This document shows, piece after piece, positions 5,247-24,979 of a DNA stretch of 64,000 bases (position 1 is the stretch's first letter; the number at the start of each line of letters is the position of its first letter). Source of the stretch: an uncultured Planctomycetota bacterium (GTDB lineage Bacteria > Planctomycetota > Planctomycetia > Isosphaerales > Isosphaeraceae); NCBI GenBank assembly GCA_963823665.1, contig CAWGMQ010000004.1:192001-256000 (forward strand), read 5' to 3'. The position numbers and the translations under genes were made by a program. The notes beneath the pieces are model-generated. The model saw nothing but the letters and a program-made list of their open reading frames with translations, was not told the origin of the DNA and ran no database searches.

Positions 5247-5327
5247 CTCATCCTCGACGAAACTCGGGTGACTGACGCTCGAATCAAACAACTGCGGCTG
5301 CCTGCACCGAGACGCACGATCTACTAA
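5247..5327 (+). pseudogene. 3' remnant of an LRR gene
   Basis: Translates LILDETRVTDARIKQLRLPAPRRTIY*, closely matching the C-terminus of LRR copy C (NRVTDAGIKQLRLPARRPRIYY). Confidence 0.8.
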
Positions 5328-5582
5328 GCTGTGGTCTGACGAAAAGGTGCAGCACGAGTTCCGCGACGCAATCGCGCAGGCAAGAACACCAGATGCAAGT
5401 CGATCCATCCGAGCTTCCAAACGCATTTGGATTGAAGAGCGCCGACCATAGCGGTATCGACCCGGAACATTGCATGGAGCCCGACGTGGAACGCGTGGGC
5501 GACGCAGCCTCTGGAGCATTTGGCGACTCAGACGAATTCACGGGAGTTTGGCTGGCAATCGCTTCTCCATACATACTGACAC

Positions 5583-5850
5583 CAGCTTTACCTTTGCGAC
5601 TTCGCACCTTTGCGTGACCCTCTCTCTCCTTGATATCACTCACTTCAAATACAAATCGCCAGTTCCGATGAGCTCCACGTTGAGTTCATCCTTCCTTTTG
5701 CGCCTTTTTCCCCTTCGCGCCTTTGAGCCCCTCTCCCCGTCTCATCACACAATTCAAACACAAATCGCGCCCCTCCGGGTGTGCTCCGCATTGAGATCAG
5801 CTATCCTTCTGCACCTTTTTCACGTTCGCGCCTTTGCGTGAGCACCTAGG
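5583..5850 (+). repeat. REP-like cluster 1 (CTTTGCGACTTCGCGCCTTTGCGTGAGCCC family)
   Basis: Three ~100-bp subunits homologous to clusters at 12442, 18930 and 24980. Confidence 0.85.
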
Positions 5851-6282
5851 TACACGTCGGCCGAGCTGGCCCGGTTGCTGGCCGTGGAACGGGAGCCGGG
5901 TTGCAAGCTGGCGGTCTCCGTCTTGAATCTCCCGGACCCGGAGGCCGGGCCGAAGCGACGGCCATTGTGCGGGCCGATCCCTTGGAGCTGGTGGCTCCCG
6001 GCCTCCCGGCTCCCGGGGCGGTCTCTCCAGGTTGGCGCCGTCTGTTGGCTCTTGGCGGGTTGGAATCGATCGGCCGAGTTCGAGCTGGTGTTGCATGATC
6101 GGGCCGGGTTCGGCCTCTCCCGGTTCTCGGCCTCCCGCGGCTTGGATACACTGGAGCGGGCCGGGTTGGTTTCTGTTGTGAGACGGCCGGGTCTGTCCCC
6201 GGTCGTGTTGATTCTGGACCCGACGGCTGGGACTGGACGGACACACCCTTTGGAAATCCGAGATGGCGGCGAATTACCATAG
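5851..6282 (+). CDS. Putative winged-HTH small protein, module copy 1 (start uncertain)
   Basis: GPIPWSWWLPASRLPGRSLQVG...GLSRFSASRGLDTLERAGLVSVVRRPG; HTH-like C-terminus; paralogues at 13037 and 19077. Confidence 0.6.
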   Translation, partial: YTSAELARLLAVEREPGCKLAVSVLNLPDPEAGPKRRPLCGPIPWSWWLPASRLPGRSLQVGAVCWLLAGWNRSAEFELVLHDRAGFGLSRFSASRGLDTLERAGLVSVVRRPGLSPVVLILDPTAGTGRTHPLEIRDGGELP

Positions 6283-6335
6283 GAAAAAGGTCATGTGAAA
6301 CGGAAACTTACAAGATTATCTTTGGAGACCCGCCA

Positions 6336-6758
6336 GTGTGGCTGCCGCGAATTCGGTTCAAGCTCCGAAGCTTGATGGTCGCTATAGCCGTGGTTGCGGT
6401 CGCGATCACTGGGGCGCTTTGGGCCTTGAAAATGCGGCGGTTGTCAAAAAACTACGCGAGTGTTGTGCAGCGAGAGAAACAGCTTGAGACGCAATACAAG
6501 CTGTGGCCGGCGCGTTCGAGGCAAAGCGCGGAAGAGTGGGAGCAAAAACGGCCGGATTCGGTAGAGAAGGAATTCTCTTCGTTATCGTCGAAACAGGTGG
6601 CGCTCGGGACAAGCTTAATCTTAGTGTCCACTATTTTCCTATCGATGACACTTTTGGTGGCCTTGATTGCCTACTTACGCAGACCAAAGCGAAAATACTC
6701 GCCCGCCCTAGCCGAGCCCCCCAAACCGAACCAAAGCGGGGAGGCCGGAAGAGTGTAG
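6336..6758 (+). CDS. Variable membrane cargo protein 1 (RFxLRxLM leader, two hydrophobic segments)
   Basis: MWLPRIRFKLRSLMVAIAVVAVAITGALWAL; lies between the wHTH and MGWK genes. Confidence 0.7.
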   Translation: MWLPRIRFKLRSLMVAIAVVAVAITGALWALKMRRLSKNYASVVQREKQLETQYKLWPARSRQSAEEWEQKRPDSVEKEFSSLSSKQVALGTSLILVSTIFLSMTLLVALIAYLRRPKRKYSPALAEPPKPNQSGEAGRV

Positions 6759-6765
6759 GTCAAAA

Positions 6766-7068
6766 ATGGGATGGAAAACCATCAACGGACGCCGGTATTA
6801 CTACAAGTCGGAGCGTGAGGGAGGCCGAGTCAAAACCACCTACTTCGGGTCCGGTGAGTCGGGCCTGTTGATCTCGCGAATGGAGGCCATCGATCGGGAG
6901 GAGAAAGACGAATCACGGAATCAGCGTCGGGCCGAGCGGGAGGAATATCGGGCCGAAGAACAGGCCGTTGCGGATTGGTTCGATGACGTCCAGGCCGTGG
7001 CCGATGCGGCGATGATTGCGGCCGGGTTTCACAAGCACAAAGGCCAATGGCGGAGGAGACGGAGATGA
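6766..7068 (+). CDS. Small basic hypothetical protein 'MGWKTINGRRYYYKS' (possibly nucleic-acid binding, mobile-element associated)
   Basis: Clean ORF with an ATGA overlap into the next gene; paralogues at 13862 and 19868. Confidence 0.75.
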   Translation: MGWKTINGRRYYYKSEREGGRVKTTYFGSGESGLLISRMEAIDREEKDESRNQRRAEREEYRAEEQAVADWFDDVQAVADAAMIAAGFHKHKGQWRRRRR

Positions 7069-7628
7069 ATGACGTTGCTAATGGCGATTCGGGGGCCGTG
7101 GCCGTCTCCAAGCCGAAACCTCCGGCCCCGGGCCAAGAGACTACCGAGCTGTTGAAGCGAGCGACGCGCGGAGAGAAGGGTTGCCTCCCGGAAGTCCGAG
7201 CACTACTCGGCGACGGCGAATATGGAGAAGCGTTGCGAGACTCGAACGGCTCTCAAGCCGAGTGGCTTCGGCGAACCCTCATTGAGAAATCGGCCGGGAA
7301 AAACATTCTCATTCAAGAGGCCGTCACTCAGAAACTCAACACGCTACAGGCCGAGCTGGCCGGACCCAATCCGACGCCGATAGAGCGGTTGCTGGCCGAG
7401 CGGGCCTCCATCTGTTGGTTCATCGTCGATCGATACGAAAACGCTTATGCCAACGCCAACGAATGGACCATCGTCCAATCGGATTTTCAACAACGCAAGA
7501 TCGACAAAGCGCATGCCCCATTCCTCTCGGCTCTCCGGACGTTGGCTCAAGTCCGCAAGCTGGCGTTGCCAACCCTCCAAGTCAACATCGCCAAGAACCA
7601 AGTGAACGTGGCCGGTTCCAACTCATGA
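7065..7628 (+). CDS. Helical hypothetical protein with C-terminal QVNIxxxQVN motif (mobile-element associated)
   Basis: ATGA-coupled to the upstream gene; ERLLAERASICW...LRTLAQVRKLALPTLQVNIAKNQVNV. Confidence 0.7.
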   Translation: MNDVANGDSGAVAVSKPKPPAPGQETTELLKRATRGEKGCLPEVRALLGDGEYGEALRDSNGSQAEWLRRTLIEKSAGKNILIQEAVTQKLNTLQAELAGPNPTPIERLLAERASICWFIVDRYENAYANANEWTIVQSDFQQRKIDKAHAPFLSALRTLAQVRKLALPTLQVNIAKNQVNVAGSNS

Positions 7629-7729
7629 AAGAGCCCACACCTCACTCTACCGGGTTGGCATCGACAAGAAGGCGAGTTTCCCGTAAATGTCATCATGGCG
7701 GGTTCCGGTAGACGATGACGTTGGCGATC

Positions 7730-7797
7730 CGTCCCCGGGGTCAGACCGAGTTTCATCCCCGGGGTCAGACCGTCCCCGGGGTCAGACCGAGTTTCAA
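7730..7797 (+). repeat. Three copies of CCCCGGGGTCAGACCG (REP-like)
   Basis: Direct repeats visible at about 7733, 7757 and 7774. Confidence 0.85.
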
Positions 7798-7874
7798 GTG
7801 ATTTGCTTCCCCGTCCCCAAGGTTCAGACCTCGTCGAGTGAATTGGAAGCCGACTTCCGAGGAGGAAACTACCG

Positions 7875-8598
7875 GCAAGCCAAACCCGTCTCCCGTCCCT
7901 GGCGAAGATTCCTGCGCTTCAGCGTGCGGGGGATGATCGTACTTGTGCTGGTGATCGGTGGGTGGCTCGGGTGGATTGTGCGGAGTGCTCGAATCCAGCG
8001 CGAGGCGGTCGCGGCGATTGAGAACGCTGGAGGCCGGGTTGCTTATGACTGGGAGTGGAGCAACGGGAATCATTTTCCAGGAGGAAAACCCTGGGGGCCA
8101 GGATGGCTCGTGGATCTCATCGGACTCGACTACTTCGGGCACGTCACCTTGGTAGTCATCAACTTCTCCCCAAAGGTATCGGTTGCAACGACCGAACAGA
8201 TCGGGCGGCTCACCCGACTCGAGTGTCTGAATCTTACTGGGTCATCCGCTGGCGACGCCGAGCTCGCGCATGTCCAGGCACTGACCAACCTCCGGTTTCT
8301 CCTGCTCGGCGACACCCAGGTCACCGACTCCGGGCTGGTGCATCTAAAGGGGATCGCCAACCTATCCTTGCTTAGCCTCTATCGCACACAAGTCACTGAC
8401 GCAGGGCTGGCCCAACTGAAGGGGCTTACCAACCTGACGGGCCTCAACCTTAACGGCACTCAGGTCACAGACGTAGGGCTCGCGCAACTGAAGGGGCTTA
8501 CCAACCTCAACGTCCTCGCCCTTGATGGCACTCCGGTCACGGATGCAGGGATCTTTGAGCTAAAGCAGACGCCGCGGAGCGTGAGGATCGTCCGTTAA
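7875..8598 (+). CDS. LRR copy A: membrane-anchored LRR protein, 5 repeats; native promoter and start replaced (ORF open from 7687)
   Basis: QAKPVSRPWRRFLRFSVRG leader, TM helix, GKPW...DYFG cap, 24-aa LxxLxxLxxLxLxxTxVTDAGLxx repeats. Confidence 0.8.
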
Positions 8599-8619: not shown

Positions 8620-8748
8620 AGGGAACCGTCCCCGTCGCATCGCGAGGAATCGGTCGCGGATCGATGACCCTCCTGGAACGAGCCGCGTGCGGGCCGTTAT
8701 GATAAATCGAGCGAACAGACATCGGTCCTCCGCTCACTACAGGCCGGC
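8620..8748 (+). promoter_or_regulatory. Conserved LRR cassette head (junction motif, -10 TATGAT at 8698, conserved 5'UTR)
   Basis: Homologous to the heads at 10675, 11570, 16493, 18198 and 23750; the -35 is divergent here (GGAACG). Confidence 0.7.
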
Positions 8749-9899
8749 ATGAACGATCAAGCCAACACGGTCCCACGTCCCCGACGAAGATTCCTGCGCT
8801 TCAGCGTTCGGGGGCTGATCGTTCTGGTGCTGGTGATCGGCGGTTGGTCCGGCTGGACTGTGAGGATGCCCGCATTCAGCGCGAGGCGGTGGCGGCGATT
8901 ACGAAAGCCGGAGGCGGAGTTTCGTACTGCTGGGAACGGAAAGACGGCGCAGATATCCGGAGCGGAAAACCTTGGGCGCCGCGGTGGATCGTGGATCGCG
9001 TCGGAGTCGACTACTTCGGTCCCGTTACCAACGCACGTGTGGTCGCCTCCGATGCAACGCTCGCACGGGTTGGACGTCTCACCGAGCTACAGCGTTTGAA
9101 TCTGATTGGTTCTTCCACTAGCGATTCCGGGATGGCACACCTCTCCGGATTGACCAAACTGTCTGTCCTCGACCTGGACGACACTCAGATCACCGATGCC
9201 GGCCTGGCACATCTGAAGGGACTGACTGGCCTCTCCTGCATTGGTGTAGGCGAGACGCAGATCACCGACGCCGGGCTGAGAGGTCTAGAGCCCTTGACCG
9301 AACTCGCGCGGCTCCGCGTCCGCGGGACCAAGATTACCGACACCGGCGTAGGGCATCTGAGGAAATTGACCAAACTTTCCGAACTCGACGTCAGCTACAC
9401 GAAGGTCACCGACGCAGGAATGGCTCATCTGAAGGGGTTGACCAATCTCACGGAACTCAATCTCAGCGGCACTCAGGTCACCGACGCAGGACTTGTCCAT
9501 CTGACCGGGTTGAACAAACTTTCAGACCTGAGCCTCTTTGACGCCGAGATCACCGACGCTGGCCTGGCTCACCTTAGCGGTTTAACTAACCTCAGGAAAC
9601 TCAACCTCGAGGCCACTGGGGTGACGGATCGGGGCTTGGCTCACGTGAACGGGCTCCGCGACCTCTCGAAACTGAACATCAGCTTTACGCATGTCACCGA
9701 CGCGGGATTGGCGCATTTGAAGTGGATGACCAATCTTGAGCGCTTGGACGTCAGCGATACCCGGGTCACCGACGCTGGTCTCGTGCATCTGAAGGGGCTC
9801 AGAAAGCTCTCAGAACTCACTCTTTACGGCACCCGCGTCACCGACGATGGAATAAAACACTTAAAGCAAGCTTTGCCGAGTCTGACGATCACTCGTTGA
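8749..9899 (+). pseudogene. LRR copy B, 11 repeats; -1 frameshift near 8865 (may be a sequencing error)
   Basis: Leader in ORF 8749..9099, body in ORF 8844..9899; GTGAGGATGCC versus paralogue GTGCGGAGTGCT. Confidence 0.85.
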
Positions 9900-10070: not shown

Positions 10071-10655
10071 ATGACCGATCAAGCCAAACCCGTCTCACGC
10101 CCCTGGCGAAGATTCCTGCGCTTCAGCGTGCGGGGACTGATCGTTCTCATGCTTGCAATGGGTGCCGGTCTGGGTTGGCTCGTTCGCGGCGCACGAATCC
10201 AAAGAGAGGCGGTAGCCGCGATCACTAAGGCCGGCGGCACGGTCGTTTATAACTGGAATGAGGATACCTCGCCGTTCAGCCCGGCGGGTAAGCCGTGGGC
10301 GCCGGGCTGGCTCGTCAAATTCATTGGAGTCCACTATTTCGGTCACGTAACGGGCGTCGATTTCTACGACAACGCATCGACCGATGCTGGGCTGGTGCAT
10401 CTAAAGCGGCTAAATAAACTCTCGCGACTGCACCTTGCTGGTACCCAGCTCACCGATGCCGGACTGGTGCACCTGCACGGGCTCACCAATCTTTCCCACC
10501 TCGATCTGAGCTACACCAAGGTCTCGGACGATGGACGGGCGCATCTGAAGCCGTTGAAAAAGCTCTCCCGGCTCGACGTCTTTGGCAATCGAGTCACAGA
10601 CGCTGGAATCAAACAATTGCGGCTGCCTGCACGGAGACCCAGGATCTACTACTGA
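10071..10655 (+). CDS. LRR copy C, 3 repeats
   Basis: MTDQAKPVSRPWRRFLRFSVRG leader; alternative upstream head containing GATATACT. Confidence 0.85.
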   Translation: MTDQAKPVSRPWRRFLRFSVRGLIVLMLAMGAGLGWLVRGARIQREAVAAITKAGGTVVYNWNEDTSPFSPAGKPWAPGWLVKFIGVHYFGHVTGVDFYDNASTDAGLVHLKRLNKLSRLHLAGTQLTDAGLVHLHGLTNLSHLDLSYTKVSDDGRAHLKPLKKLSRLDVFGNRVTDAGIKQLRLPARRPRIYY

Positions 10656-10674: not shown

Positions 10675-10807
10675 CCTGGAATCGTCCCTGTCGCATCGCC
10701 AGGCGGCGAGACGTCGGATCTATTGAGCCTCCTTCGACGACTCGCGTGCAAGCCGTTATGATGAATCGAGCGAACAGACATCGGCCCTCTGCTCACAAGA
10801 GGCTGGC
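10675..10807 (+). promoter_or_regulatory. LRR cassette head: sigma70-like TCGACG(10734)-N17-TATGAT(10757)
   Basis: Same spacing in five copies; ATG 51 nt after the start of TATGAT. Confidence 0.75.
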
Positions 10808-11546
10808 ATGAACGATCAAGCCAAATCCGCCTCACGTCCCTGGCGAAGATTCCTGCGCTTCAGCATGCGGGGGATGATCGTCGTTGTGCTGGTGATGGGC
10901 GGCGGGCTGGGATGGCTCGTTCGTCAGCGCCCACATCCAGCGCGACGCTGTGGCGGCGATTCAGCATGCTGGCGGCAACGTCTTATATAGCTGGGAGCGG
11001 AATAATAGAACAGGTACGTCGGGAGGAAAGCCGTGGGCGCCAACTTGGCTCGCGGATCTCATCGGCGTTGACTACTTCGGTCACATCACTTCGGTTTGGT
11101 TCGTTGGGTCCTCGAACACAACCCATTCAGTGCTTGCGCAGGTCGGGTGTCTCACAGGAGCTCACGAGGTGCAATTCAAAGGATGCACCGTTAGCGATGC
11201 CGGGATGGCCCATCTGAGAGGCCTTCGCGGGCTATCTTATCTTGACCTCAGCGGCACTCAAATTACCGACGCCGGGCTGGCCCACTTGAAGGGGTTGACC
11301 AACCTTTCGGGGCTCTTCCTCACGGACACTCACGTTTCCGACGCTGGGTTGGTGCACGTGGAGGGGCTGACCAACCTTCAAATCCTCAGTCTTGCCCACA
11401 GTCAGGTTTCCAATGCCGGTCTGGCGCGTCTGAAGGGGCTAACCAAGCTCAACAAACTCTCGCTCGACGTAAGCCAGGCCACAGACGCTGGTGAACGCGA
11501 GCTCCAGCGGGCTTTGCCGAATCTAAAGGTAAAGGTTTACCCTTGA
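10808..11546 (+). pseudogene. LRR copy D, 5 repeats; +1 frameshift near 10925 (may be a sequencing error)
   Basis: Leader in ORF 10808..10990, body in ORF 10950..11546. Confidence 0.85.
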
Positions 11547-11569
11547 AATGCTGCCCGTCCAAGCGACAC

Positions 11570-11698
11570 GGAATCGCCCCTGTCGCATCGCCAGCCGTTG
11601 GGACGTCTGATCGTCGACCGTCCTTCGACGAGCCGCATGCGCGCCATTATGATGAATCGAGCGAACAGACATCGGCCCTCCGCTCATAAGACGCCGGC
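11570..11698 (+). promoter_or_regulatory. LRR cassette head: TCGACG(11625)-N17-TATGAT(11648)
   Basis: Conserved block shared with the other copies. Confidence 0.75.
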
Positions 11699-12448
11699 AT
11701 GAACGATCAACCCAAACCCGCCTCCCGTCCCTGGCGAAGATTCCTGCGCTTCAGCGTGCGGGGGATGATTGTACTGGTGATCGTGATCGCCGGCTGCCTT
11801 GGATGGATCGTACGTAGCGCCCGCAACCACCGACAGGCCGTCGCGGCAATTATCAAGATGAATGGGGAGGTGGGGTACGTGGACGACTCGCGGACCTCCT
11901 TACAAGCGATGCGTGGCGAGCGTTCTCTCAGGTACCTGATCGGCGACTGGTTGGCTATCAACGACGTTTTCAGCGGCGTCCATGTCCGGCTCACGTTGAA
12001 AGAAGGCATGGACCAGGAACTGGCGCTCGCGCCCGTAGGCGATTTGACAAACCTCCAATCACTGAGTTTTGTGGGCGGCGCCATTCAAGATTCCGCGATC
12101 GAGAAAATCGGGCGGGCGAACAACCTCAAATGGCTCCAAATCCAATCCGCACCGCTCACCCGCGTTGGGTTCCGGCATTTGACGCAGTACAAGAACCTGG
12201 AGCACTTGTTCCTCTACGACATCGACATTCCCGAAGGGGCGTTCGAGCACTTCGGCGCGCTGGCGAATCTGAAAACACTCGAGATGCACCAATGCTGGCG
12301 AGTGGACAAAGGCCTTGCCGAGATGCAAGTACCGCCGCGCCTTGCGACCCTCCGTATCCGTTACGCGCCGCTCTCGGATGCCGGCCTCAAGCACATCGCG
12401 CGGCTGCCGCACCTCACAGAACTTTTCCTGGAAGACGTTCTCGACTGA
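11699..12448 (+). pseudogene. LRR copy E: 3'-truncated near-duplicate of copy F
   Basis: Co-linear with 16625..17370 up to GAAGACGTTCTCG, where the REP-like tandem repeat begins. Confidence 0.85.
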
Positions 12449-13035
12449 ATTCAGCTCGACCTTTGCGACTTCTCGCCTTTGCGTGAGCCCCTTTCTCATC
12501 ACACACTTCAAACACAAATCGCGCCCCTGCTGGTGTGCTCCGCACTGAGTTCACCTTTCCTTTTGCGCCTTTTTCCCCTTCGCGCCTTGCGTGAGCCCCT
12601 CTTTTCTCCCGATCACGCATCCAAGAAAATCACCTTGCCCCGTCGCGCATCGCCGCGACTGAATTCAGCTCGACTTTTGCGACTTCTCGCCTTTGCGTGA
12701 GCCCCTCTCTCATCACACACTTCAAACACAAACCGCGCCCCTGCTGGTGTGCTCCGCACTGAGTTCATCTTTCCGTTTGCGCCTTTTTCCCCTTCGCGCC
12801 TTGCGTGAGCCCCTCTTTTCTCCCGATCACGCACCCAAAAAAATCGCCTTGCACCGTCGCGCATCGCCACGACTGAATTCAGCTCGACCTTTGCGACTTC
12901 GCGCCTTTGCGTGAGCCCCTCTTTTGTTCTCGTCACACACCCCAAAAACAAATCGTGCGCCTTCGCGTGTCCTCCCCATTGACATCGCCTCTCCTTTGCG
13001 CCATGTTCCCCTTCGCGCCTTTGCGTGGACCCCTC
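12442..13035 (+). repeat. REP-like cluster 2: 214-bp tandem repeat (2 full copies and a partial third)
   Basis: CGACTGAATTCAGCTCGAC starts at 12442, 12656 and 12870. Confidence 0.9.
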
Positions 13036-13036
13036 G

Positions 13037-13427
13037 GTACACGTCGGCCGAGCTGGCCCGGTTGCTTGCCGTGAAACGTGAGCCGAGTTGCAAGCTGGCG
13101 GTCTCCGTCCCGGCTCCCCCGGACCCGGAGGCCAGGCCGAAGCGCAGGCCGTTGTACGGGCCAATCCCGTCGAGCTGGTCGCCCCCGGCCTCTCGGCTCC
13201 CGGGGAAAACCCTCCAGGTCGGGGCCATCTGTTGGCTCTTGGCGGGTTGGAATCGAACGGCCGCGTTCGAGCTGGCGCTGGAGGATCGGCCCGAGTTCGG
13301 CCTCTCCCGGTTCTCGGCCTCGCGGGGCCTCGATACACTGGAAACGGTTGGATTGGTCTCCAAGGTCCGTCGGCCGGGCCGGTCTCCGATCGTGTTGCTC
13401 CGGGACGCTACGGTGGGAAATTCTTGA
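13037..13427 (+). CDS. Putative winged-HTH small protein, module copy 2 (start uncertain)
   Basis: YTSAELARLLAV...YGPIPSSWSPPASRLPGKTLQVG...GLSRFSASRGLDTLETVGLV. Confidence 0.6.
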
Positions 13428-13439
13428 CGTCAGAGGCCG

Positions 13440-13808: not shown

Positions 13809-13861
13809 TTGACGGGCAAGCGCAGACCGAAGCGGGAAGGCCGAGAAAGTGTAAGTTAAGA

Positions 13862-14477: not shown

Positions 14478-14495
14478 TGTGTGCACCTGGAGGTA
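14468..14495. promoter_or_regulatory. Inverted repeat just upstream of abiEi (candidate autoregulatory operator)
   Basis: TACCTCC-N14-GGAGGTA; AbiEi antitoxins are known to repress their promoter via inverted repeats. Confidence 0.5.
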
Positions 14496-14504
14496 ACATG
14501 GACC

Positions 14505-15128
14505 ATGCCAAGTCCGGCCAATCTCTCTGACGATCGGCGACGCCGGGTTGACGCGGCCTTTCGCGAGAGGGGCGGGATAATGCGGATGGCCGAAGCCCTC
14601 CGGGCAGGCGTCCATCGCCGCACGCTGTACGCCCTCCGCGACGCGGGCGTGCTCCAGCAACTCGGCCGCGGGCTCTACCGCCTGGCCGACGCCCCGCCAC
14701 TCTCCCACCCGGACCTCGTCGCGGTCTCGCGACGCGCCCCGAGGGCGATCGTCTGCCTCGTCTCCGCACTCGGTTTTCACGGATTGACCACCCAGGTCGC
14801 ACACGAGGTGTACCTGGCCGTCTCCAGGGACAGCGAGCCGCCCCGCGTCGAATACCCCCCAGTCCGCGTATTCCGGTTCGGCATGCGGGCCTTCAGCGAA
14901 GGGGTCGAGACGCACGACCTGGACGGCGTCCCTGTCCGGATCTACTCACGCGAGAAGACCCTGGCCGACTGTTTCAAATACAGAAACGTGGTTGGGCTCG
15001 ATACCGCGCTCGAGGCGCTACGGCGATATCGCGAAGAGGGCCGGGTCGACGTCGGCGCCATCCTCCGCTACGCCCGCACCTGCCGGGTCGAGAAAGTTAT
15101 TCGCCCGTACCTGGAGGCGATCCTGTGA
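14505..15128 (+). CDS. abiEi: Type IV TA system antitoxin, AbiEi family
   Basis: GGIMRMAEALRAGVHRRTLYALRDAGVLQQLGRGLYRL wHTH; CLVSALGFHGLTTQ; YSREKTLADCFKYRNVVGLDTALEAL. Confidence 0.9.
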   Translation: MPSPANLSDDRRRRVDAAFRERGGIMRMAEALRAGVHRRTLYALRDAGVLQQLGRGLYRLADAPPLSHPDLVAVSRRAPRAIVCLVSALGFHGLTTQVAHEVYLAVSRDSEPPRVEYPPVRVFRFGMRAFSEGVETHDLDGVPVRIYSREKTLADCFKYRNVVGLDTALEALRRYREEGRVDVGAILRYARTCRVEKVIRPYLEAIL

Positions 15129-16036
15129 CTCGGCCGCCGAGGGACGTAGCGGCGTCCGTCCGCGGACGGCTCCGGGACGCGGCCCGGGCCTCGGGCCGCC
15201 CGTTCCAGGAGGTGCTCGAATACTACGCGATGGAGCGCTTCCTGTACCGGTTGGCCCAGTCGCCGCACGCCGGCCGCTTCGTGCTCAAGGGCGCGCTGAT
15301 GTTCCGGGCCTGGGGTGCACCCGAACTCCCGCACGACCCGGGACATTGACTTGCTCGGCCGGCTGGAGAACACCGTCGAAGCGGTCGTGCCGGTGTTGCG
15401 CGACATGTGCGGACTCGTCGTCCAGCCGGACGGGATGGTCTTCGATCCGGCGTCGGTCGGGGCGCCGTGATCAAGGAGGGCGCCGAGTACGCCGGGGTCC
15501 GCGTGACGTTCTTGGGGACCTTGCAGAACGCCCGGGTGGCCATGCAGGTCGATATCGGATTCGGCGACGTGGTGACCCCGGGGCCCGTACCGACCGACTA
15601 CCCGACCCTGCTCGCGCTCCCGGCCCCGCACCTGAACGGCTATCCGCGGGAGACGGTCGTGGCCGAGAAGTTCGAGGCGATGGTCAAGCTCGGACTGGTA
15701 AACAGTCGGATGAAGGACTTCTACGACCTGTGGGTCCTGGCCCGCCGGTTCGACTTCGACGGCCGGACCCTGGTTACGGCAATCGAGCGGACGTTCGCTC
15801 ATCGCAATACCGCGGTCGCCCCCCTCCCGATCGCGCTGACCCCGGCGTTCGCCGACGATCCCGCAAAGCGCTCGCAGTGGAAGGGGTTCGTGCGGAGGAC
15901 CAGACTCGACGACGCGCCGGGGGAACTGGCAGCAGTAACGGGGGAACTCAGAGCGTTCCTTGTTCCAGTGGCGGAGATGGTCGCAGCCGGCACGCCGTTC
16001 GAGCGGAGCTGGAAAGCCCCCGGCCCATGGGCGTGA
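15125..16036 (+). pseudogene. abiEii: Type IV TA toxin, AbiEii nucleotidyltransferase; two compensating indels (~15322 and ~15460)
   Basis: ERFLYRL...FVLKGALM, R-T-RDIDLL (middle frame), DIGFGD, ETVVAEKFEAM, NSRMKDFYDLW. Confidence 0.85.
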
Positions 16037-16624: not shown

Positions 16625-17776
16625 ATGACCGATCAAGCCAAACCCACCACACGTCCCTGGCGAAGATTCCTGCGCTTCAGCGTGCGGGGGCTGATTGTAC
16701 TGGTGATCGTGATCGCCGGCTGCCTTGGATGGATCGTACGTAGCGCCCGCAACCACCGACAGGCCGTCGCGGCAATTATCAAGATGAATGGGGAGGTGGC
16801 GTACATGGACGACTCGCGGACCTTCTTACAAGCGATGCGCGGCGAGCGTTCTCTGAGGTACCTGATCGGCGACTGGTTGGGTATCAACGACGTTTTCAGC
16901 GGCGTCCATGTCCGGCTCACGTTGAAAGAAGGCACGGACCAGGAACTGGCGCTCGCGCGCGTAGGCGATTTGACAAACCTCCAATCACTGAGTTTTGTCG
17001 GCGGCGCCATTCAAGATTCCGCGATCGAGAAAATCGGGCGGGCGAACAACCTCAAATGGCTCCGGATCCAATCCGCACCGCTCACCCGCGTTGGGTTCCG
17101 GCATTTGGCGCAGTACAAGAACCTGGAGTACTTGTTCCTTTACGACATCGAGATTCCCGAAGGGGCGCTCGAGCACTTCGGCGCGCTGGCGAATCTGAAA
17201 ACACTCGAGATGCACCAATGCTGGCGAGTGGACAAAGGCTTTGCCGAGATGCAAGCACCGCCGCGCCTCGCGACCCTCCGTATCCGTTACGCGCCGCTCT
17301 CGGATGCCGGCCTCAAGCACATCGCGCGGCTGCCGCACCTCACAGAACTTTCCCTGGAAGACGTTCTCGTGACCGACGCCGGAATGGCAAGCCTCCAGGG
17401 CCTGTCCCAGCTCACCGAGCTTCGCCTGAAAAGCGATGATTTGACCGACGCCGCCTTGGCGAGCCTGGCCAGCCTGCGCACCATCCGCCGCCTTTCGATC
17501 GACGTACCAAGAATCACAGACGCAGGTGCCGAGCATCTGGCCCAGCTCACCAACCTCGAGTCGTTAAACTTCACTCGAGAAAGATTGACCGACGCAGGCA
17601 TCATGAAGTTAAAGCCGCTCAAGAAACTAGCCTTGCTGAACATCGGCAGGACAGGAATTACTGAGGACGGCGCCAGCGAACTCCAGAAGGAGTTGCCCAA
17701 GCTCGTGGAGATCACCAGAGGAACGAGAGCTGCCTCAGTTCCAAGACTTCCGCGCGCCAAAACCGCCGGCCGCTAG
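16625..17776 (+). CDS. LRR copy F, ~10 repeats, intact
   Basis: Conserved leader and TM, divergent cap, 24-aa LRRs, ELQKELPKL C-cap. Confidence 0.9.
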   Translation: MTDQAKPTTRPWRRFLRFSVRGLIVLVIVIAGCLGWIVRSARNHRQAVAAIIKMNGEVAYMDDSRTFLQAMRGERSLRYLIGDWLGINDVFSGVHVRLTLKEGTDQELALARVGDLTNLQSLSFVGGAIQDSAIEKIGRANNLKWLRIQSAPLTRVGFRHLAQYKNLEYLFLYDIEIPEGALEHFGALANLKTLEMHQCWRVDKGFAEMQAPPRLATLRIRYAPLSDAGLKHIARLPHLTELSLEDVLVTDAGMASLQGLSQLTELRLKSDDLTDAALASLASLRTIRRLSIDVPRITDAGAEHLAQLTNLESLNFTRERLTDAGIMKLKPLKKLALLNIGRTGITEDGASELQKELPKLVEITRGTRAASVPRLPRAKTAGR

Positions 17777-17793: not shown

Positions 17794-17905
17794 GTGTAGC
17801 AGGCACACTCCGTGTGCCGTCCGCCGAACTTGCCGGTGGGTGGCACTGGCCAGCTCAGTGCTCCAATTCTCGGGCGATTCGCTGTCCCGGAATCGCGAAA
17901 AGCCA
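17794..17905 (+). repeat. ~110-bp composite REP-like element (GTAGCAGGCACACTCCGTGTGCCGTC...), copy 1
   Basis: Direct repeat of 20983-21094. Confidence 0.85.
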
Positions 17906-17907
17906 TC

Positions 17908-18038
17908 CTGAGCGCACGCAAGTTACCGACGGGGGGCTGCTTCAACTGCGGAGTCTAACAAAGCTGGAAGAACTTGACCTCACCGTTACGGAAGTTGTTG
18001 ATTTCAAACTGTCAGGCTCTCTGGTGACGGGAATGTAA
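17908..18038 (+). pseudogene. Isolated internal LRR fragment
   Basis: ERTQVTDGGLLQLRSLTKLEELDLTVTEV; flanked by REP-like elements. Confidence 0.7.
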
Positions 18039-18274: not shown

Positions 18275-18762
18275 ATGAACGATCGAGCGAAACCCGCCGC
18301 CCGTCCCTGGCGAAGATTCCTGCGATTCAGCGTGCGGGGAATGATTTTTCTTGTGGTGGTGATCGGTGGATGGCTTGGCTGGATCGTGCGAAGCGCGCGG
18401 ATTCAGCGCGATGCCGTGGACGCGATCACCAAAGCCGATGGGCAGGTCACATATGACTGGCACTGGACCGGGACCGACCGGAAGGTTGCTCCGACGGGAA
18501 GACCTTGGGCGCCCAGGTGGGTGGTGGATCTCGTTGGAGTTGACTATTTCGGAAACATCAGATGCGTCTTGTTCTACTCACCGTCCAAAGCAACCGGAGC
18601 AACGATCGCACAGGTTGGGCGCCTATCCCAACTACAGGAACTGCATCTCGATGAGTCGTCGCTAGACGACGCCAGCATGGTGCATTTGAAGGGGCTGACC
18701 GAACTCTACTGGTTCAGTCTCAGTGACACTCCGGTCACCGGCGCCGGGCTGGCGCAATTGAC
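18275..18762 (+). pseudogene. LRR copy G, truncated after 2 repeats (ORF reads on into non-coding repeats to 19021)
   Basis: Leader and cap intact; LRR pattern is lost after GAGLAQL. Confidence 0.8.
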
Positions 18763-18929
18763 GCATATTCACAATTCGCTAGCTTGCTGTCACTGCCTTG
18801 CCCCCCATCGGCGAACGGCCTGGAATCGTCTCCGTCGCATCGCCAGGGTGGACGCGCCCAACTTCCACGCCTCGGTGCAAGCGCGTTCTATGAGCCGACG
18901 TGGCCTCCGGCCAGGCCAATCGCACGCAG

Positions 18930-19075
18930 CCTTACCTTTGCGGCTTCGCGTGAGCCCCTCTTTTGTTCTCCTTGCACGCCCCAAAAACAAATCGTGCGTC
19001 TGCGCGTGTCCTCCCCGTTGAGTTTGCCACTCCCTTTGCGCCTTGTTCCCATTCGCGCCTTTGCGTGAGCCCCTC
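18930..19075 (+). repeat. REP-like cluster 3
   Basis: CTTTGCGGCTTCGCGTGAGCCC...TTCGCGCCTTTGCGTGAGCCC. Confidence 0.85.
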
Positions 19076-19076
19076 G

Positions 19077-19467
19077 GTACACGTCGGCCGAGCTGGCCCG
19101 GTTGCTAACCGTGGAACGGGAGCCGGATTGAAAGCTGGCGATCTCCGTCCCGGCTCTCCCGGACCCGGAGGCCAGGCCGAAGCGCCGGCCGTTGTACGGG
19201 CCGATCCATTGGAGCTGGTGGCTCCCGGCCTCTCTGCTCCCCGGGAAGTCCCTCCAGGTCGGGGCCGTCTGTTGGCTCCTGGTGGGTTGGAATCGATCGG
19301 CGGAGTTCGAGCTGGCGTTGCATGATCGGGCGGAGTTCGGCCTCTCCCGGTTCTCGGCCTGCCGGGGCTTCGATACACTGGAAAACGCCGGGTTGCTCTC
19401 GACCATTGGACGGCCGGGCCGGTGTCCCAAGGTGATGATCGTGGATGCTCACCCAGGAAATGGTTGA
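19077..19467 (+). pseudogene. wHTH-like gene, module copy 3 (in-frame TGA near 19130)
   Basis: YGPIHWSWWLPASLLPGKSLQVG...; TGC in copies 1 and 2 is TGA here. Confidence 0.65.
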
Positions 19468-19479
19468 CGGGGTACGGCG

Positions 19480-19836
19480 GTGAGGGCATTCCGCTTCCGA
19501 ATCCGGGCGATCATGATCGTGATCGCTACCCTCGCTCTCGCACTTGGCGCGGTTCGATTAGCCCTTCACTACCAGATTGCGAGATTGTCGGTTGAAATCG
19601 GCGAACCCAATTTTGTGATTCTGCATTTGTGGTCGGGTGTCCATCTTACGCAGCGCGGCACGGAGGCAGTCTCGATACAGTTTTCGCTTCAGGAAATGCT
19701 CGTTTGCGTCGGCCTATTTGCCTGCTGCTGCGCGGTACTCTTGCGCCAGTCCAGAACACGCGGCGAAAGGCAAAGCGCTGACTCTGGAGTCATGCCCACA
19801 CGCAGTGTTCCGATAAGGAAATCCCGGGCGCCTTGA
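19480..19836 (+). CDS. Variable membrane cargo protein 4
   Basis: MRAFRFRIRAIMIVIATLALALG leader; unique body with a second TM segment. Confidence 0.7.
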   Translation: MRAFRFRIRAIMIVIATLALALGAVRLALHYQIARLSVEIGEPNFVILHLWSGVHLTQRGTEAVSIQFSLQEMLVCVGLFACCCAVLLRQSRTRGERQSADSGVMPTRSVPIRKSRAP

Positions 19837-19867
19837 AGCGGAGCTGCCGAGAGAGTGTAGGTTAAAA

Positions 19868-20122
19868 ATGGGATGGAAAACCATCAACGGCCGTCGCTAT
19901 TGCTACAAGTCCGCTACCGCGGCAAACGGCTGATTTCGTCGGGGGATGACGTTGCGTGTTCGCTTCCGAATCCGGACGATCATGCTCGTGGTCGCGGCGA
20001 CGGCGGTCATGTTGGGTCTATGACTACAAGTCGGAGCCCGAGGGAGGCCGAGTCTATACCGCCTTCTTCGGCGCGGGTGAGTCGGGCCCGTTGATTTCAC
20101 TCCTGGGGCGGGAGCATCGGGC
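19868..20122 (+). pseudogene. MGWK gene copy 3, interrupted by a 112-bp insert and 3'-truncated
   Basis: MGWKTINGRRYCYKS / YKSEPEGGRVYTAFFGAGESG around the insert at 19912-20023. Confidence 0.8.
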
Positions 20123-20139: not shown

Positions 20140-20496
20140 TCAACCCTTCTTACCTGCCTGCCGCTTTTGTTTGGTAGCAGGTGCGGCCTTCGCGGATCGA
20201 GTCGGCGCTACTTTCTTCGACGGAGCTTTCTTGACCGAAAGCGCAGCAGTTTTCTTCTTCGCCGCCACCTTCTTGGTTTTGGAAGCCTGCGCCATCGCCT
20301 TCGGGGCAGGTTTCGACGTCTTGCCCTGCACGGCTTTGGAAGAAGCCTTCGCGCCTTTGGGTGTGCCGCGTGTCGGCATCATATCCCCCACCGCGTGCAT
20401 GGCTTTGGACCCAGCGTTGATCACGACTTCTGCCGCCGACGTCGCCGCATCGCCAATCCGCTCAAGCACGCCTTTGGATTTCTTTTTGCTCAGCAT
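20140..20496 (-). CDS. Lys/Ala-rich histone-H1-like small protein
   Basis: KKVAAKKKTAA...KKAPSKKVAP low-complexity basic tail; GGGAG RBS. Confidence 0.7.
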   Translation of the reverse strand: MLSKKKSKGVLERIGDAATSAAEVVINAGSKAMHAVGDMMPTRGTPKGAKASSKAVQGKTSKPAPKAMAQASKTKKVAAKKKTAALSVKKAPSKKVAPTRSAKAAPATKQKRQAGKKG

Positions 20497-20982
20497 CAAA
20501 CGCTCCCTGCGTGGTTAGGCAGTGTGTCAACTGTCCCTTCTTCAAGCGACACACAGCATATTCTAGGCTTCGGTCCCCGCGCTTCCTATTCCTTTCGATG
20601 GAATTGCGGGACGATGAGCGACCCCGCCCGGCGGCCGGAGCGACTCCAACCCGCCGCGCCGACACGTGTGTCACTCCGCGATTACAATCCTTGATGTGAG
20701 CGCGACGAACCGTTGACGTCCCTGGGAACGCGGCTGATGTCGCCTATTCGCTTCCGAATCCGGTCGATCATGATCGCCAACTAGCGTCGCCGCGTCCGTC
20801 CGGCTCCGTGCCTCCCTGGCAGATTCTCCAAGCGGCCAACGCCCTGAAGGCCGACGACGCGGGCCCGACAACGGCGGAGGGAGTTGAAGCCGGGTTGGAT
20901 CACAAGCGATTCATTGAATCACTAAATAGCATTGCACGATCATGCGACTCAGGTGGGCGGCACTAGCTTCGCCCGTGGTCCG

Positions 20983-21779: not shown

Positions 21780-22103
21780 ATGTGCAGACAACCCAATCCC
21801 GTCTCCCGTCCCAGGCGAAGATTCCTGCGCTTCAGCGTCCGGGGCCTGATTGTTCTTGTTCTTGTGATCGGTGCTTGGCTCGGCTGGATGGTCCGCAGTG
21901 CACGTATTCAACGGGAAGCGGTGGCGGCGATCGAAAATGCGGGAGGCGAAGTCCTCTATGACCGCGAGTGGACCGACGCCGGGCTGGTGCACCTGAGCAA
22001 GCTGCCCAGCCTTTCGGAACTCTACATCGACGACGCTCAGATCACCGACGCCGGAGTGAAAGAACTCCAGCAAGCTTTGCCACGCCTGACGATCGAACGC
22101 TAA
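21780..22103 (+). CDS. LRR copy H: miniature version with 1 repeat
   Basis: Leader ...GGEVLYDREW joined in frame to TDAGLVHLSKLPSLSELYIDDAQITDAGVKELQQALPRLTIER. Confidence 0.8.
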   Translation: MCRQPNPVSRPRRRFLRFSVRGLIVLVLVIGAWLGWMVRSARIQREAVAAIENAGGEVLYDREWTDAGLVHLSKLPSLSELYIDDAQITDAGVKELQQALPRLTIER

Positions 22104-22397: not shown

Positions 22398-22490
22398 ATC
22401 GCCGATCAAGCCAAACCCACCACACGTCCCTGGCGAACATTCCTGCGCTTCAGCGTGCGGGGGATAATTGTTATTGTGCTCGTGATCGCC
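22398..22490 (+). pseudogene. LRR copy I: leader-only remnant (start ATG changed to ATC)
   Basis: IADQAKPTTRPWRTFLRFSVRGIIVIVLVIA; GATATACT-type head as in copy C. Confidence 0.75.
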
Positions 22491-22584
22491 CGGCCGGGGG
22501 GGTGTAGTTCTTAGCTGACAAACAGTTCGTAAACCGCGGCCAGATTGGATTCCAGTAACCAGGTACGCATATAACACATAAAGC

Positions 22585-23058
22585 ATGATGATGCGCCGCC
22601 CACGTTTGCGGCTTACGATCGCGGGGATCATGGGGATCGTCGCGTGTACTGCCCTCGTTCTGGGGTGCCTCGTCGAGGCAGGTCGGATCAGGCGCACACA
22701 GGCATTCTATCTTCGTGAATCCGCAAAATTTGCCCAGCTCGAGAGCCGCGAAATCCAGAACCAGTCTCTCTATTTGAAGGCCGCACTGCTGGAGAAGAAT
22801 CTCATTGAACGTATGCGAGAAAGAGACGCCGAACGACAGGCGGCCATCCGAGATCACTTTTATGCCCCGATGAAGCGGATCGCTCCAGACACCGAGCGCT
22901 ACAAAATAAACTTCGAGAGGGGCAGGAAATATCTTACTCACTTGGACGAGTCACGAATCAAGGCGAAGCGGTATTCCGAACTGAGCCGCCGGTACAAAAG
23001 GGCCGGTACCTGCCTCTGGCTGCCCTTTGGACCAAACCCCTTGAATCGCGGTGACTGA
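22585..23058 (+). CDS. Membrane-anchored helical hypothetical protein (RLxLTI-type leader)
   Basis: MMMRRPRLRLTIAGIMGIVACTALVLG...YSELSRRYKRAGTCLWLPFGPNP. Confidence 0.7.
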   Translation: MMMRRPRLRLTIAGIMGIVACTALVLGCLVEAGRIRRTQAFYLRESAKFAQLESREIQNQSLYLKAALLEKNLIERMRERDAERQAAIRDHFYAPMKRIAPDTERYKINFERGRKYLTHLDESRIKAKRYSELSRRYKRAGTCLWLPFGPNPLNRGD

Positions 23059-23100
23059 CGGAGCGAAAAGACATCGTGCAGTCGCTCGCCAGAGGCCGGC

Positions 23101-23730
23101 ATGACCGATCAAGCGAGATCCACCACCCGTCCCTGGCGAACATTCCTGCGCTTCAGCGTCCGCGGGATGATCGTTCTTGTGCTGGTGATCGGTGCCGGGC
23201 TCGGCTGGGTGGTCCGGGTGGTCCGTACCGCTCAGATTCAACGTGAGGCAGTGGCGGAGAACACGCGAGCGGGGGATCACCGACCTCCTCACCAACCGCA
23301 GGTCTAGCATCCCGACGATCTTCGATTGACGGCTTGCTGGGCGCGGGTCTCATGACGCCGCCCTCCTCACCGACCGCAGGTCTCCAGGCGGCCGTCCCGG
23401 CAATCCAAGATTGTCGCAGCACTTGTTGGGCGCGGGTTTCATGACCCCGCCCCCCTCACCGACCGCAGGTCTCCAGAAGGAATGGTGCATCTGAGGGGAA
23501 TGACCAAACTACGCTCCCTCGATCTCAGCACCACACAGGTCTCCGGTCCCGGACTGGTGCATCTGCAACGGCTCAACTCCCTGAAGAGCCTTCGGCTTTG
23601 GGGCACTCAGTTATCCGACGAATCGCTGGTTTATCTGAAGGGCTTGGCCTTCGTCTCAGAACTCGACGTCAATGGCACACACCTCAGCAGTGCAGGTTGG
23701 GAAGAGCTGAGTCGGTGGCGCAATCATTAA
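23101..23730 (+). pseudogene. LRR copy J: cap region replaced by a REP cluster (~23270-23476); 3 repeats remain
   Basis: Leader ORF 23101..23307 and LRR ORF 23482..23730. Confidence 0.8.
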
Positions 23731-23749
23731 CTTGAAGCCCAACAATCCG

Positions 23750-23888
23750 GCCTGGAATCGTCCCTGTCGCATCGCCAGCCGTCGGCGTCGGGACGTCAGA
23801 TCATCGACCCTCCTTCGACGAGCCGCGTGCGAGCCGTTATGATGAACCGAGCGAATAGAGATCGGCACTCCATTCACAAGAGGCCGGC
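23750..23888 (+). promoter_or_regulatory. LRR cassette head: TCGACG(23815)-N17-TATGAT(23838)
   Basis: Conserved block shared with the other copies. Confidence 0.75.
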
Positions 23889-24842
23889 ATGACCGATCAA
23901 GCCAAACCCGTCTCCCGCCCCCGGCGAAGAGTTCTGCGCTTCAGCATGCGGGGGATGATGGTACTCGTGCTGGCGATTGGAGGCTGGCTCGGCTGGTTCG
24001 TGCGGAGCGCTCGCATTCAGCGCGAGGCCGTGGCGGCGATTCAGAAGGGCGGCGGCGAAGTCCACTTTCAGTGGGAGTGGAAGAACGGGACCGTCGTGCC
24101 GGGAGGAAAGCCTTGGGCGCCTGAACAGCTCGTGAAACTACTCGGCGTCGACTATTTCGGTCACATCGCCCACGTGTCGTTCGCCACGAGAGCACAGCTT
24201 GCGAAGCCAACGAGGGACTTGCTCGCACAGCTCGGGGAAATACAACGCCGATCGGCGGAATTGGATGACGTGCGCTATTCGATGATGGAGGCTGAATTCT
24301 CTCACGCCGACGATCTATATCAAAGGCTGATTCTCTCGGGCGAGCTCACGCCCAAGCCACTGATGCCGCTCTTGAAGGGTCAGAGCAAGCTAGCCCATCT
24401 CGATCTTCGCGACAACGACCTGATCTTCGAAGGCTTGGCTCAAATGGAAGAGCTGACCAGCCTGACGACGCTCGACCTTGGCGGCACGGGGATCACGGAT
24501 TCCCAACTGGTGCACCTGAAGAAATTGAGACAGCTCTCAGAGCTTCATCTGGACTCTGTCAACATCTCTGATGCCGGGCTAGCGAATCTGGCGGGACTGG
24601 CCCGAATGTCCCACCTCGACCTCGAGAAGACAGGGGTTACCGACTCCGGTCTGGTTCATTTGGGCCGGCTGACGAAGCTTAGAAAGCTCAGCCTCGCATT
24701 CACTCAGGTCACCGATCGAGGATTGGTACACCTCAAGGAATTGACAAGTCTTTTGCATATCGACCTCAGTTCCACGGGTGTCACGGATGAGGGTGTGAAG
24801 GAGCTGAGGCTCGCCTTGCCGAACGCGACGATCGTGCGCTGA
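23889..24842 (+). CDS. LRR copy K, 6 repeats plus a helical insertion, intact
   Basis: Leader, cap, non-LRR insert, LRRs, ELRLALPNATIVR C-cap. Confidence 0.9.
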   Translation: MTDQAKPVSRPRRRVLRFSMRGMMVLVLAIGGWLGWFVRSARIQREAVAAIQKGGGEVHFQWEWKNGTVVPGGKPWAPEQLVKLLGVDYFGHIAHVSFATRAQLAKPTRDLLAQLGEIQRRSAELDDVRYSMMEAEFSHADDLYQRLILSGELTPKPLMPLLKGQSKLAHLDLRDNDLIFEGLAQMEELTSLTTLDLGGTGITDSQLVHLKKLRQLSELHLDSVNISDAGLANLAGLARMSHLDLEKTGVTDSGLVHLGRLTKLRKLSLAFTQVTDRGLVHLKELTSLLHIDLSSTGVTDEGVKELRLALPNATIVR

Positions 24843-24979
24843 CTTCTTGCTCACGCAATCGCCCTGGAATCGTCTCTGTCGCATCTCCACGCTGGAGCCG
24901 TCAAACTCCCGGCCGGCGATTCAATCGCATTCCGTCAGCCGTTCAGCCCGCCCCCTCCCCGAAGCGTGCAGCTACTCAT

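What the first reader, a model, noticed from the sequence alone, without database searches (positions are those of the whole stretch)
5247..24890. Cassette-like repertoire of variable membrane-anchored LRR proteins
Seen: 11 co-oriented copies (A-K) and 2 fragments (5247, 17908) in ~20 kb. All copies share a near-constant leader/TM (RPWRRFLRFSVRGxIVLVLVIGxWLGWxVRSAR). Most also share a GKPW..DYFG cap and an ELxxALP C-cap. Repeat number varies (A5, B11, C3, D5, E~6 truncated, F10, G2, H1, I0, J3, K6), and the xxLxLxx positions differ freely between repeats. Established: those positions form the ligand-binding concave face of LRR solenoids, and planctomycetes carry many LRR paralogues. Inference: a constant-anchor/variable-binder array in which intact genes, minis and silent fragments exchange 72-bp repeats, loosely analogous to antigenic-variation or VLR-type repertoires. 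Its position next to AbiE suggests a defence or cell-recognition role. I know of no description of such a system, but cannot search.
Basis: partly seen in the sequence, partly recalled or inferred. Interest (0 to 1): 0.8.

Follow-up and report, generated by a model that had tools for sequence, protein, structure and literature searches.

The report
Fast-turnover membrane LRR paralogue cluster
A soil planctomycete keeps dozens of related genes for membrane-anchored binding proteins, and this cluster beside a tRNA gene is where such copies are gained, swapped and lost fastest; it looks like gene-family turnover, not a programmed shuffling system.

Summary
The array is real: 11 co-oriented leaders, two fragments, repeat counts right to within one. 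It is one of 7 clusters of a genome-wide family (79 matches, mostly single loci), found in 28 of 61 genomes of its family and 0 of 120 others in the phylum. Repeat exchange is unsupported. Apart from the E/F whole-gene duplicate, no two window genes share a repeat above 75% identity. Concave-face dN/dS is 0.50, convex 0.46, and K's orthologues conserve the concave face best. Five copies, two of them truncated, have their own promoter-like site. The B and D frameshifts may be assembly errors. No recombinase or reverse transcriptase lies nearby. What holds: turnover at this tRNA island is fast (no full-length orthologue in a congener's syntenic array), flanks are mosaic, toxin-antitoxin genes are neighbours, and a 24-nt element sits 26 nt after the stop in five genera. 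Best reading: a birth-and-death repertoire of periplasmic binders with fixed specificities. A protective role is inferred only.

The parts
3683..3757 (+). tRNA-Arg(ACG), left edge of the variable island
   Evidence: same tRNA heads LRR arrays in G035 and G032
5247..5327 (+). LRR C-cap fragment
   Evidence: 87% identical to the 3' end of C
5875..7628 (+). Repeated non-LRR module, copy 1: unknown ORF remnant, small protein with a related R-F-x-x-R leader, two small ORFs; partial copies near 12900-14100 and 18940-20100
   Evidence: all 8 genomic matches of the first ORF lie in three tRNA islands that hold LRR copies; no family hit over cut-off
7687..8598 (+). Copy A, 5 repeats; usual ATG lost at about 7867, in-frame ATG at 7687
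8622..8645 (+). 24-nt element 26 nt after the stop of A; further copies start at 10678, 11570, 16496, 18822, 22127, 23754 and 24866
8749..9899 (+). Copy B, 11 repeats, frameshift near 8866 (possibly an assembly error)
   Evidence: an otherwise identical contig of run X1 stops matching at 8866
10071..10655 (+). Copy C, 3-4 repeats, open frame
10734..10762 (+). sigma70-like site TCGACG-N17-TATGAT before D; the same site at 11625 (E), 16551 (F), 18201 (G), 23815 (K)
   Evidence: 8 sites found, shuffles 3.2 +/- 1.7; consensus match only
10808..11546 (+). Copy D, about 5 repeats, frameshift near 10925 (possibly an assembly error)
   Evidence: an otherwise identical contig of run X2 stops matching at 10924
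11699..12448 (+). Copy E, truncated recent duplicate of F
   Evidence: 94.5% over 11559-12443 vs 16485-17369; dN 0.037, dS 0.042
14481..16036 (+). AbiEi antitoxin and AbiEii toxin (type IV TA); AbiEii is split into two frames
16625..17776 (+). Copy F, about 10 divergent repeats, open frame, different N-cap
   Evidence: nearest non-E relative 31% with the same leader
17892..18038 (+). LRR fragment, 1-2 repeats
18275..18775 (+). Copy G, truncated after 2 repeats and joined to the trailer element
   Evidence: junction spanned without differences by a contig of X3
21780..22103 (+). Copy H, mini gene: leader joined to the last repeat and C-cap
22398..22514 (+). Copy I, leader fragment without ATG
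23101..23730 (+). Copy J: leader ORF 23101-23307 and separate 3-repeat body 23470-23730
23889..24842 (+). Copy K, open frame, helical insert plus 6 repeats
   Evidence: 78-86% orthologues P0002-P0004
25207..25752 (+). Uma2-family gene, right edge shared with the G035 island

Best explanation
This is the fastest-turning cluster of a lineage-restricted multigene family of single-pass membrane proteins. Each has a short basic N-tail, one TM helix, an N-cap, 24-aa LRRs and a C-cap, so the LRR most likely faces the periplasm (inferred from the positive-inside rule). Copies arise by whole-gene duplication (shown: E/F and other pairs). They gain or lose repeats within the gene (shown: minis; 8 vs 12 repeats in a tandem pair). 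They change their concave residues after duplication (seen in 1-2 pairs) and then keep them (shown for K). At tRNA-flanked plasticity islands copies are added, replaced and deleted, probably by ordinary homologous recombination between the conserved leader and the conserved C-cap/trailer (inferred from mosaic flanks). Most copies have their own promoter, so the result is a standing set of binders with fixed specificities, not one expressed slot fed by silent donors. Most likely role (inferred, about 35%): binding and neutralising foreign proteins that reach the periplasm, as immunity proteins do. The confidence figure refers to the evolutionary mechanism.
For: 79 matches genome-wide; 43 loci, 7 with three or more copies. 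Window copies do not form a clade and mix with other loci and genera in a poorly resolved tree. Best between-gene repeat identity in the window is at most 0.75 apart from E/F, no higher than matches in other genomes; 7 of 75,907 between-gene pairs reach 0.9, all in duplicated genes. dN/dS over 101 paired repeats from 18 gene pairs: framework 0.14, concave 0.50 (0.37-0.65), convex/other 0.46. K vs three orthologues: concave 31-32 of 36 identical, convex 29-32 of 42. Between window paralogues: concave 14%, convex 29%, framework 63%. The G035 island keeps collinear non-LRR markers at 84-92%, yet no window copy has a full-length orthologue, while many dispersed copies have 78-94% orthologues. H's upstream is 93-98% identical to a C6 locus but its leader only 64-87%; A's first 190 nt are 87-96% identical to a G035 mini with an unrelated upstream. 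Promoter-like sites precede D, E, F, G and K. Model of K: helix 20-53, LRR solenoid, pLDDT 85.
Against: The dN/dS pairs are mostly dispersed copies, and repeats were paired only at 70% identity or more, which biases dN down. Array members lack orthologues, so selection on them is untested except for K and E/F. One recent duplicate pair outside the window has concave dN above dS (13/71 vs 7/103, p=0.019, uncorrected, picked from 18 pairs). Old repeat exchange cannot be excluded because the repeats are nearly saturated (within-gene 0.54, between-gene 0.52). The conserved 24-nt element is unexplained. No cognate toxin was found among 62 of 139 neighbouring non-LRR ORFs scanned, so the protective role has no direct support. 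Topology and expression are untested.
Confidence: 0.7

Rival explanations
1. One reading: an antigenic-variation or VLR-like system in which intact genes, minis and silent fragments exchange 72-bp repeats.
For: Constant leader and caps, hypervariable concave positions, variable repeat number, minis and fragments; repeats do not sort by gene; a different array in G035.
Against: No near-identical repeats between different window genes except the E/F duplicate; concave face conserved in K orthologues; concave dN/dS 0.50, like the convex face; truncated E and G keep promoter-like sites; minis arise by deletion; no RT on this contig, nearest tyrosine recombinase about 280 kb away.
Confidence: 0.07
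2. Site-specific cassette system: the 24-nt element is a recombination site, and promoter-gene-site units are excised and inserted by a recombinase acting in trans, integron- or pdif-like.
For: All 13 genomic matches lie beside family genes, control 0; stop exactly 26 nt upstream in 28 of 40 hits; found in 6 of 61 genomes, five genera; one isolated copy on C7 has the element on both sides; sequence after the element varies more than before it.
Against: It follows only this gene family; many close relatives lack it (18 of 38 within 6 mismatches); no attC boxes by inspection (consensus recalled), no covarying hairpin (0 of 26 pairs), no Rfam hit, no integrase nearby. Hits were chosen by similarity, which inflates their conservation. 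Descent by tandem duplication, with the element as part of the next promoter, gives the same pattern.
Confidence: 0.1
3. The proteins are periplasmic co-receptors for the planctomycete Ser/Thr kinase and ECF sigma signalling network, not protective binders.
For: Some family genes abut kinase or ECF genes in other clusters (L003, L015, L055, L060); copy number rises with genome size (16 of 17 genomes over 10 Mb vs 12 of 44 smaller; counted).
Against: No cytoplasmic domain beyond about 15 residues; no kinase or ECF gene inside the window array; kinases and ECFs are abundant in these genomes, so adjacency may be chance (not tested).
Confidence: 0.2
4. Neutral junkyard: the island only collects decaying duplicates that have no current function.
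For: At least five of 11 copies are broken (E, G, H, I, J); E/F dN is about equal to dS; many short repeated elements and a split AbiEii lie in the island.
Against: K is intact and conserved in three other assemblies; framework dN/dS 0.14; arrays persist at this tRNA in three genomes of two genera; B and D may be intact.
Confidence: 0.13

Closest known systems
Listeria internalin multigene family
   Same: Many envelope LRR paralogues with variable presence: only 4 of 42 clusters are shared by all strains, and accessory genes concentrate in hotspots (PMC3556495, passages seen). Weak NCBIfam internalin hits; internalin folds among the Foldseek hits.
   Different: Scores are 19-30 bits against cut-offs over 1000. 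The anchor is an N-terminal TM helix, not an LPXTG or GW anchor (recalled); repeats are 24 aa, not 22 aa (recalled); free-living soil organism.
Homogeneous polyimmunity loci and Imm-LRR (Zhang et al. 2012, PMC3482391)
   Same: Tandem co-oriented paralogues without a cognate toxin cassette that differ between relatives; LRR is listed as an immunity fold (passages seen).
   Different: Here there are several loci, individual promoters, interrupting genes, no adjacent recombinase and no known cognate toxin. The paper's LRR row does not list planctomycetes.
Protochlamydia LGR proteins (Eugster et al. 2007, PMC2216083)
   Same: PVC-superphylum LRR paralogues made by serial gene duplication and relocation, with repeats added by adjacent concatenation (abstract seen).
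   Different: Six large proteins with 28-mer repeats; here about 75 small TM-anchored proteins with 24-mer repeats, partly in tRNA-island arrays.
Planctomycete paralogue expansions (PMC8567305)
   Same: Lineage-specific families with a shared N-terminal motif and about 50-100 members (passages seen).
   Different: That paper does not mention LRR (0 hits) and its motifs (N_methyl, RRLxxExLE) differ. Mahajan et al. 2020 was not held and may cover LRR expansions.
Lamprey VLR and antigenic-variation cassettes (recalled, no paper read)
   Same: Constant ends around variable LRR modules.
   Different: No single expression site, no promoterless donor bank and no recent module copying were found.

Membership tests
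Antigenic-variation / VLR-type cassette system | Recent copying of modules between donors and expressed gene (near-identical shared segments) | tested here: not met
   at most 0.75 between window genes except the E/F duplicate
Antigenic-variation / VLR-type cassette system | One expression site, promoterless donors | tested here: not met
   promoter-like sites before five copies, two of them truncated (consensus only, no RNA data)
Antigenic-variation / VLR-type cassette system | Variation within one population | tested here: inconclusive
   only short, low-depth contigs; no piece spans the array
Antigenic-variation / VLR-type cassette system | Diversifying selection on the binding face | tested here: inconclusive
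   0.50 overall and conserved in K; one outside pair above 1, uncorrected
Diversity-generating retroelement | Adenine-specific variation against a template repeat | tested here: not met
   all bases vary, Lys/Glu/Gln codons common; no template copy
Diversity-generating retroelement | Reverse transcriptase near the locus | tested here: not met
   22 RT matches, none on contig C4
Integron cassette array | Integron integrase beside the array | tested here: not met
   nearest PF00589 match at C4:499853
Integron cassette array | attC sites after promoterless genes of unrelated families | tested here: not met
   element follows only this family; no covarying hairpin; attC boxes absent by inspection (consensus recalled)
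Homogeneous polyimmunity locus | Tandem co-oriented paralogues differing between relatives | tested here: met
Homogeneous polyimmunity locus | Closely spaced, uninterrupted, probably polycistronic, usually one locus | tested here: not met
   own promoters, interrupting genes, 7 clusters
Homogeneous polyimmunity locus | Members belong to a family found next to cognate polymorphic toxins | tested here: inconclusive
   no such toxin among 62 of 139 neighbouring ORFs scanned
Homogeneous polyimmunity locus | Neutralises a toxin | not testable with these tools
   needs a bench assay
Class 1 internalins | NCBIfam cut-off reached | tested here: not met
   19-30 bits vs 1050-1600
Bacterial LRR solenoid proteins | LRR repeats and fold | tested here: met
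   Pfam LRR_6/LRR_4/LRR_8; model and Foldseek

The most novel reading that the evidence does not exclude
Large-genome soil Isosphaeraceae keep a shared pool of periplasmic LRR 'antibody-like' genes. The genes are swapped whole at tRNA islands by recombination through the constant leader and the conserved 24-nt 3' element, with bursts of positive selection on the concave face after duplication, and they protect against competitor toxins or phage proteins.
Probability: 0.15. Interest if true: 0.75.

Novelty: new member of a known kind. Interest (0 to 1): 0.37.

Why it matters
The N-terminal anchor and cap have no Pfam or NCBIfam model, and I found no paper on the family (searches; Mahajan 2020 not held). 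So an apparently undescribed family of up to about 75 envelope binders in giant soil planctomycete genomes is a fair lead. If the copies are immunity-like, they would show how these bacteria defend their periplasm. As an evolutionary mechanism it resembles known LRR gene-family turnover.

Tried and rejected
DGR: codon pattern and RT positions do not fit. Integron: no integrase, no attC. Structured RNA in the spacer: no Rfam match, no compensatory pairs. An att duplicate of the tRNA 3' end: none; only a 14-nt T-loop match at 14191 inside a leader-coding stretch, E 0.037, probably chance. E/F as a chimera of leader and foreign body: weakened, because P0122 has the same leader and a similar cap. 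Plasmid or viral carriage: no match. Close relatives in metagenome contigs: 35 loci, all 31-61% and mostly generic LRR. No RNA holder was listed, which says nothing on expression. Read joints have short sides and probably come from other organisms, so they were not used. Antisense ORFs starting in the element: the distance to the stop is not always in frame, so they were treated as shadow frames. tRNA association of all loci: 6 of 43 vs 6.9% background, weak; 4 of 7 arrays; the tRNA list is incomplete (150 of 322 candidates scored). At tRNA-Arg(ACG), G020 and G029 show no family gene within 16-18 kb, and G007's contig ends after 7 kb. Correlation of 5' and 3' block identities is about 0 but uninformative given saturation. 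One search used a misremembered DOI and returned an unrelated paper. No complex prediction was run.
Full report
Observation. The window is G000:C4:192001-256000 of a 16.46-Mb, 12-contig genome. Between tRNA-Arg(ACG) at 3683 and a Uma2 gene at 25207 lie 11 co-oriented leaders and two fragments. C, F and K have open frames; A has lost its usual ATG; E, G, H, I and J are truncated, deleted or split; B and D are frameshifted. A model of K shows one helix over residues 20-53, an N-cap and an LRR solenoid (pLDDT 85); Foldseek returns only generic LRR proteins. A periplasmic LRR is inferred from the arginines before the TM helix.

Family context. K's first 97 residues match 79 places in the genome. 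Merged, these are 77 genes in 43 loci, 33 of them single and 7 with three or more copies. The query matches 28 of 61 genomes of the family, with up to 69 copies, and 0 of 120 other genomes of the phylum (single query, so distant forms may be missed). Named records that carry the element after an LRR gene are mostly labelled Isosphaeraceae or Isosphaerales; one is labelled only as a bacterium and one as Alphaproteobacteria. There is no match on plasmids or viral contigs.

Turnover. The congener G035 (flanks 84-88% identical) has the same tRNA-to-Uma2 island, with about 11 family copies and collinear markers at 84-92%, including AbiEi at 88.8%. No window copy has a full-length orthologue there, while many dispersed copies do, at 78-94%. 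G032, another genus, also has an array after this tRNA; G020 and G029 do not within 16-18 kb. Four of 7 arrays lie within 25 kb downstream of a tRNA, against 6.9% background, but only 6 of 43 loci do, and the tRNA list is incomplete. The G035 island also holds DarTG, and the G032 island a Macro-domain gene. A tree of the first 330 nt of 121 genes is star-like, and window copies do not group. Some flanks are mosaic: H's upstream is 93-98% identical to a C6 locus while its leader is 64-87%, and A's first 190 nt are 87-96% identical to a G035 mini with an unrelated upstream.

Repeat exchange. Among 38 window repeats the best match in another window gene is at most 0.75, except E/F (0.99). Best matches in other genomes are as high (0.56-0.83). 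Genome-wide, 7 of 75,907 between-gene pairs reach 0.9, all in duplicated genes. The nearest neighbour lies in the same gene for 22 of 393 repeats, against 5.7 expected, which fits occasional duplication within a gene. Recent exchange between genes is therefore not seen. Ancient exchange cannot be excluded.

Selection. Over 101 paired repeats from 18 gene pairs, dN/dS is 0.14 (framework), 0.50 (concave) and 0.46 (convex/other). The pairs are mostly dispersed copies, and pairing needed 70% identity. K has orthologues at 78-86% with the same repeat number, and its concave residues are the better conserved (31-32 of 36 vs 29-32 of 42). Between window paralogues the concave face is the least conserved (14% vs 29% and 63%). 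One recent duplicate outside the window has excess concave change (p=0.019 against synonymous sites, 0.0017 against convex; picked from 18 pairs). This reads as specificity change after duplication followed by conservation.

Silent copies. D, E, F, G and K each have a sigma70-like site about 45 nt before the ATG. Contigs from two public runs match the window exactly and stop matching at 8866 and 10924, the B and D breaks, with only 11 and 4 unmatched letters. In about 40 kb of coding-like alignment with G035 there are 18 isolated frameshifting indels, 3 of them deletions in G000. B and D may thus be intact; this is a hint, not proof. G's truncation is spanned by an identical contig.

The 24-nt element. 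It occurs 13 times in the genome, always beside family genes, control 0, and in 6 of 61 genomes. A stop lies exactly 26 nt upstream in 28 of 40 hits. In the named-genome scan 6 of 14 hits follow an LRR C-cap at that distance and 5 look like chance. It has no Rfam match and no covarying structure, and no integrase or RT is near. It may be part of the downstream promoter, a recombination target, or only inherited sequence; this is open.

Comparison. It works like other bacterial LRR multigene families: internalins (PMC3556495, passages), Protochlamydia LGRs (PMC2216083, abstract) and, in layout, homogeneous polyimmunity loci (PMC3482391, passages). It fails membership tests for VLR-type cassette systems, DGRs, integrons and class 1 internalins, and meets only part of the polyimmunity description. 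Eight searches found no paper on this family. PMC8567305 and PMC11032199 have no LRR passage, PMC5010888 gave only a reference, and Mahajan 2020 was not held. The scan's notes hold nothing on this family; one note on another cluster of this genome reached a similar turnover verdict.

Verdict. A real, apparently undescribed family with fast whole-gene turnover at tRNA islands. The programmed-repertoire reading is not supported, and the function is inferred only. Interest 0.37.

Noticed in passing
window 46274-58724: A tandem series of about six roughly 2-kb units, 67-70% identical to each other, with shorter matches at 44450-45640; content not examined.
   Followed up: no
window 37798-39132 and 43545-43978: Two further local duplications: about 630 nt at 71.5% and about 290 nt at 66%.
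   Followed up: no
window 5875-7628, 12900-14100, 18940-20100: A triplicated module of unknown small ORFs; its first ORF occurs only in three tRNA islands of this genome and also in the G035 and G032 islands. It may be the remnant of an integrative element.
   Followed up: partly
window 6336, 13440, 14154, 19480, 22585; L049:6642: Small non-LRR membrane proteins, and a pentapeptide-repeat protein in G035, share a related R-F-x-x-R leader; 111 genomic matches among 150 of 671 candidates scored. Its register resembles a prepilin leader (recalled, untested).
   Followed up: partly
window 5088-5229: Two tandem Acido-Lenti-1 (RF01687) matches on the minus strand, one over the gathering score.
   Followed up: no
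window 15125-16036: AbiEii is split into two frames; real break or assembly error not settled.
   Followed up: partly
window 20140-20499 (-): A Lys/Ala-rich small protein, 92% identical in G035, where it interrupts an LRR copy.
   Followed up: partly
window 3808-3875: A roughly 60-nt element just after the tRNA has dozens of 78-93% matches across G035.
   Followed up: no
L037:9998-11392 (G000:C6): Two RT genes of multi-copy type (equal scores at several places) sit inside the C6 LRR cluster; one type has 7 copies. Probably group II introns (not tested).
   Followed up: partly
L138:3049-3951, L139:3049-3534, L137:3001: A family gene plus element in genomes labelled uncultured bacterium and Alphaproteobacteria, and the element alone in one labelled Actinomycetes: misbinning or transfer, not resolved.
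   Followed up: partly
L006:11600-12000 vs L045:6000-6600: A recent duplicate pair (G000 C4:655 kb, C11:548 kb) whose changes concentrate on the concave face; a candidate for positive selection.
   Followed up: partly
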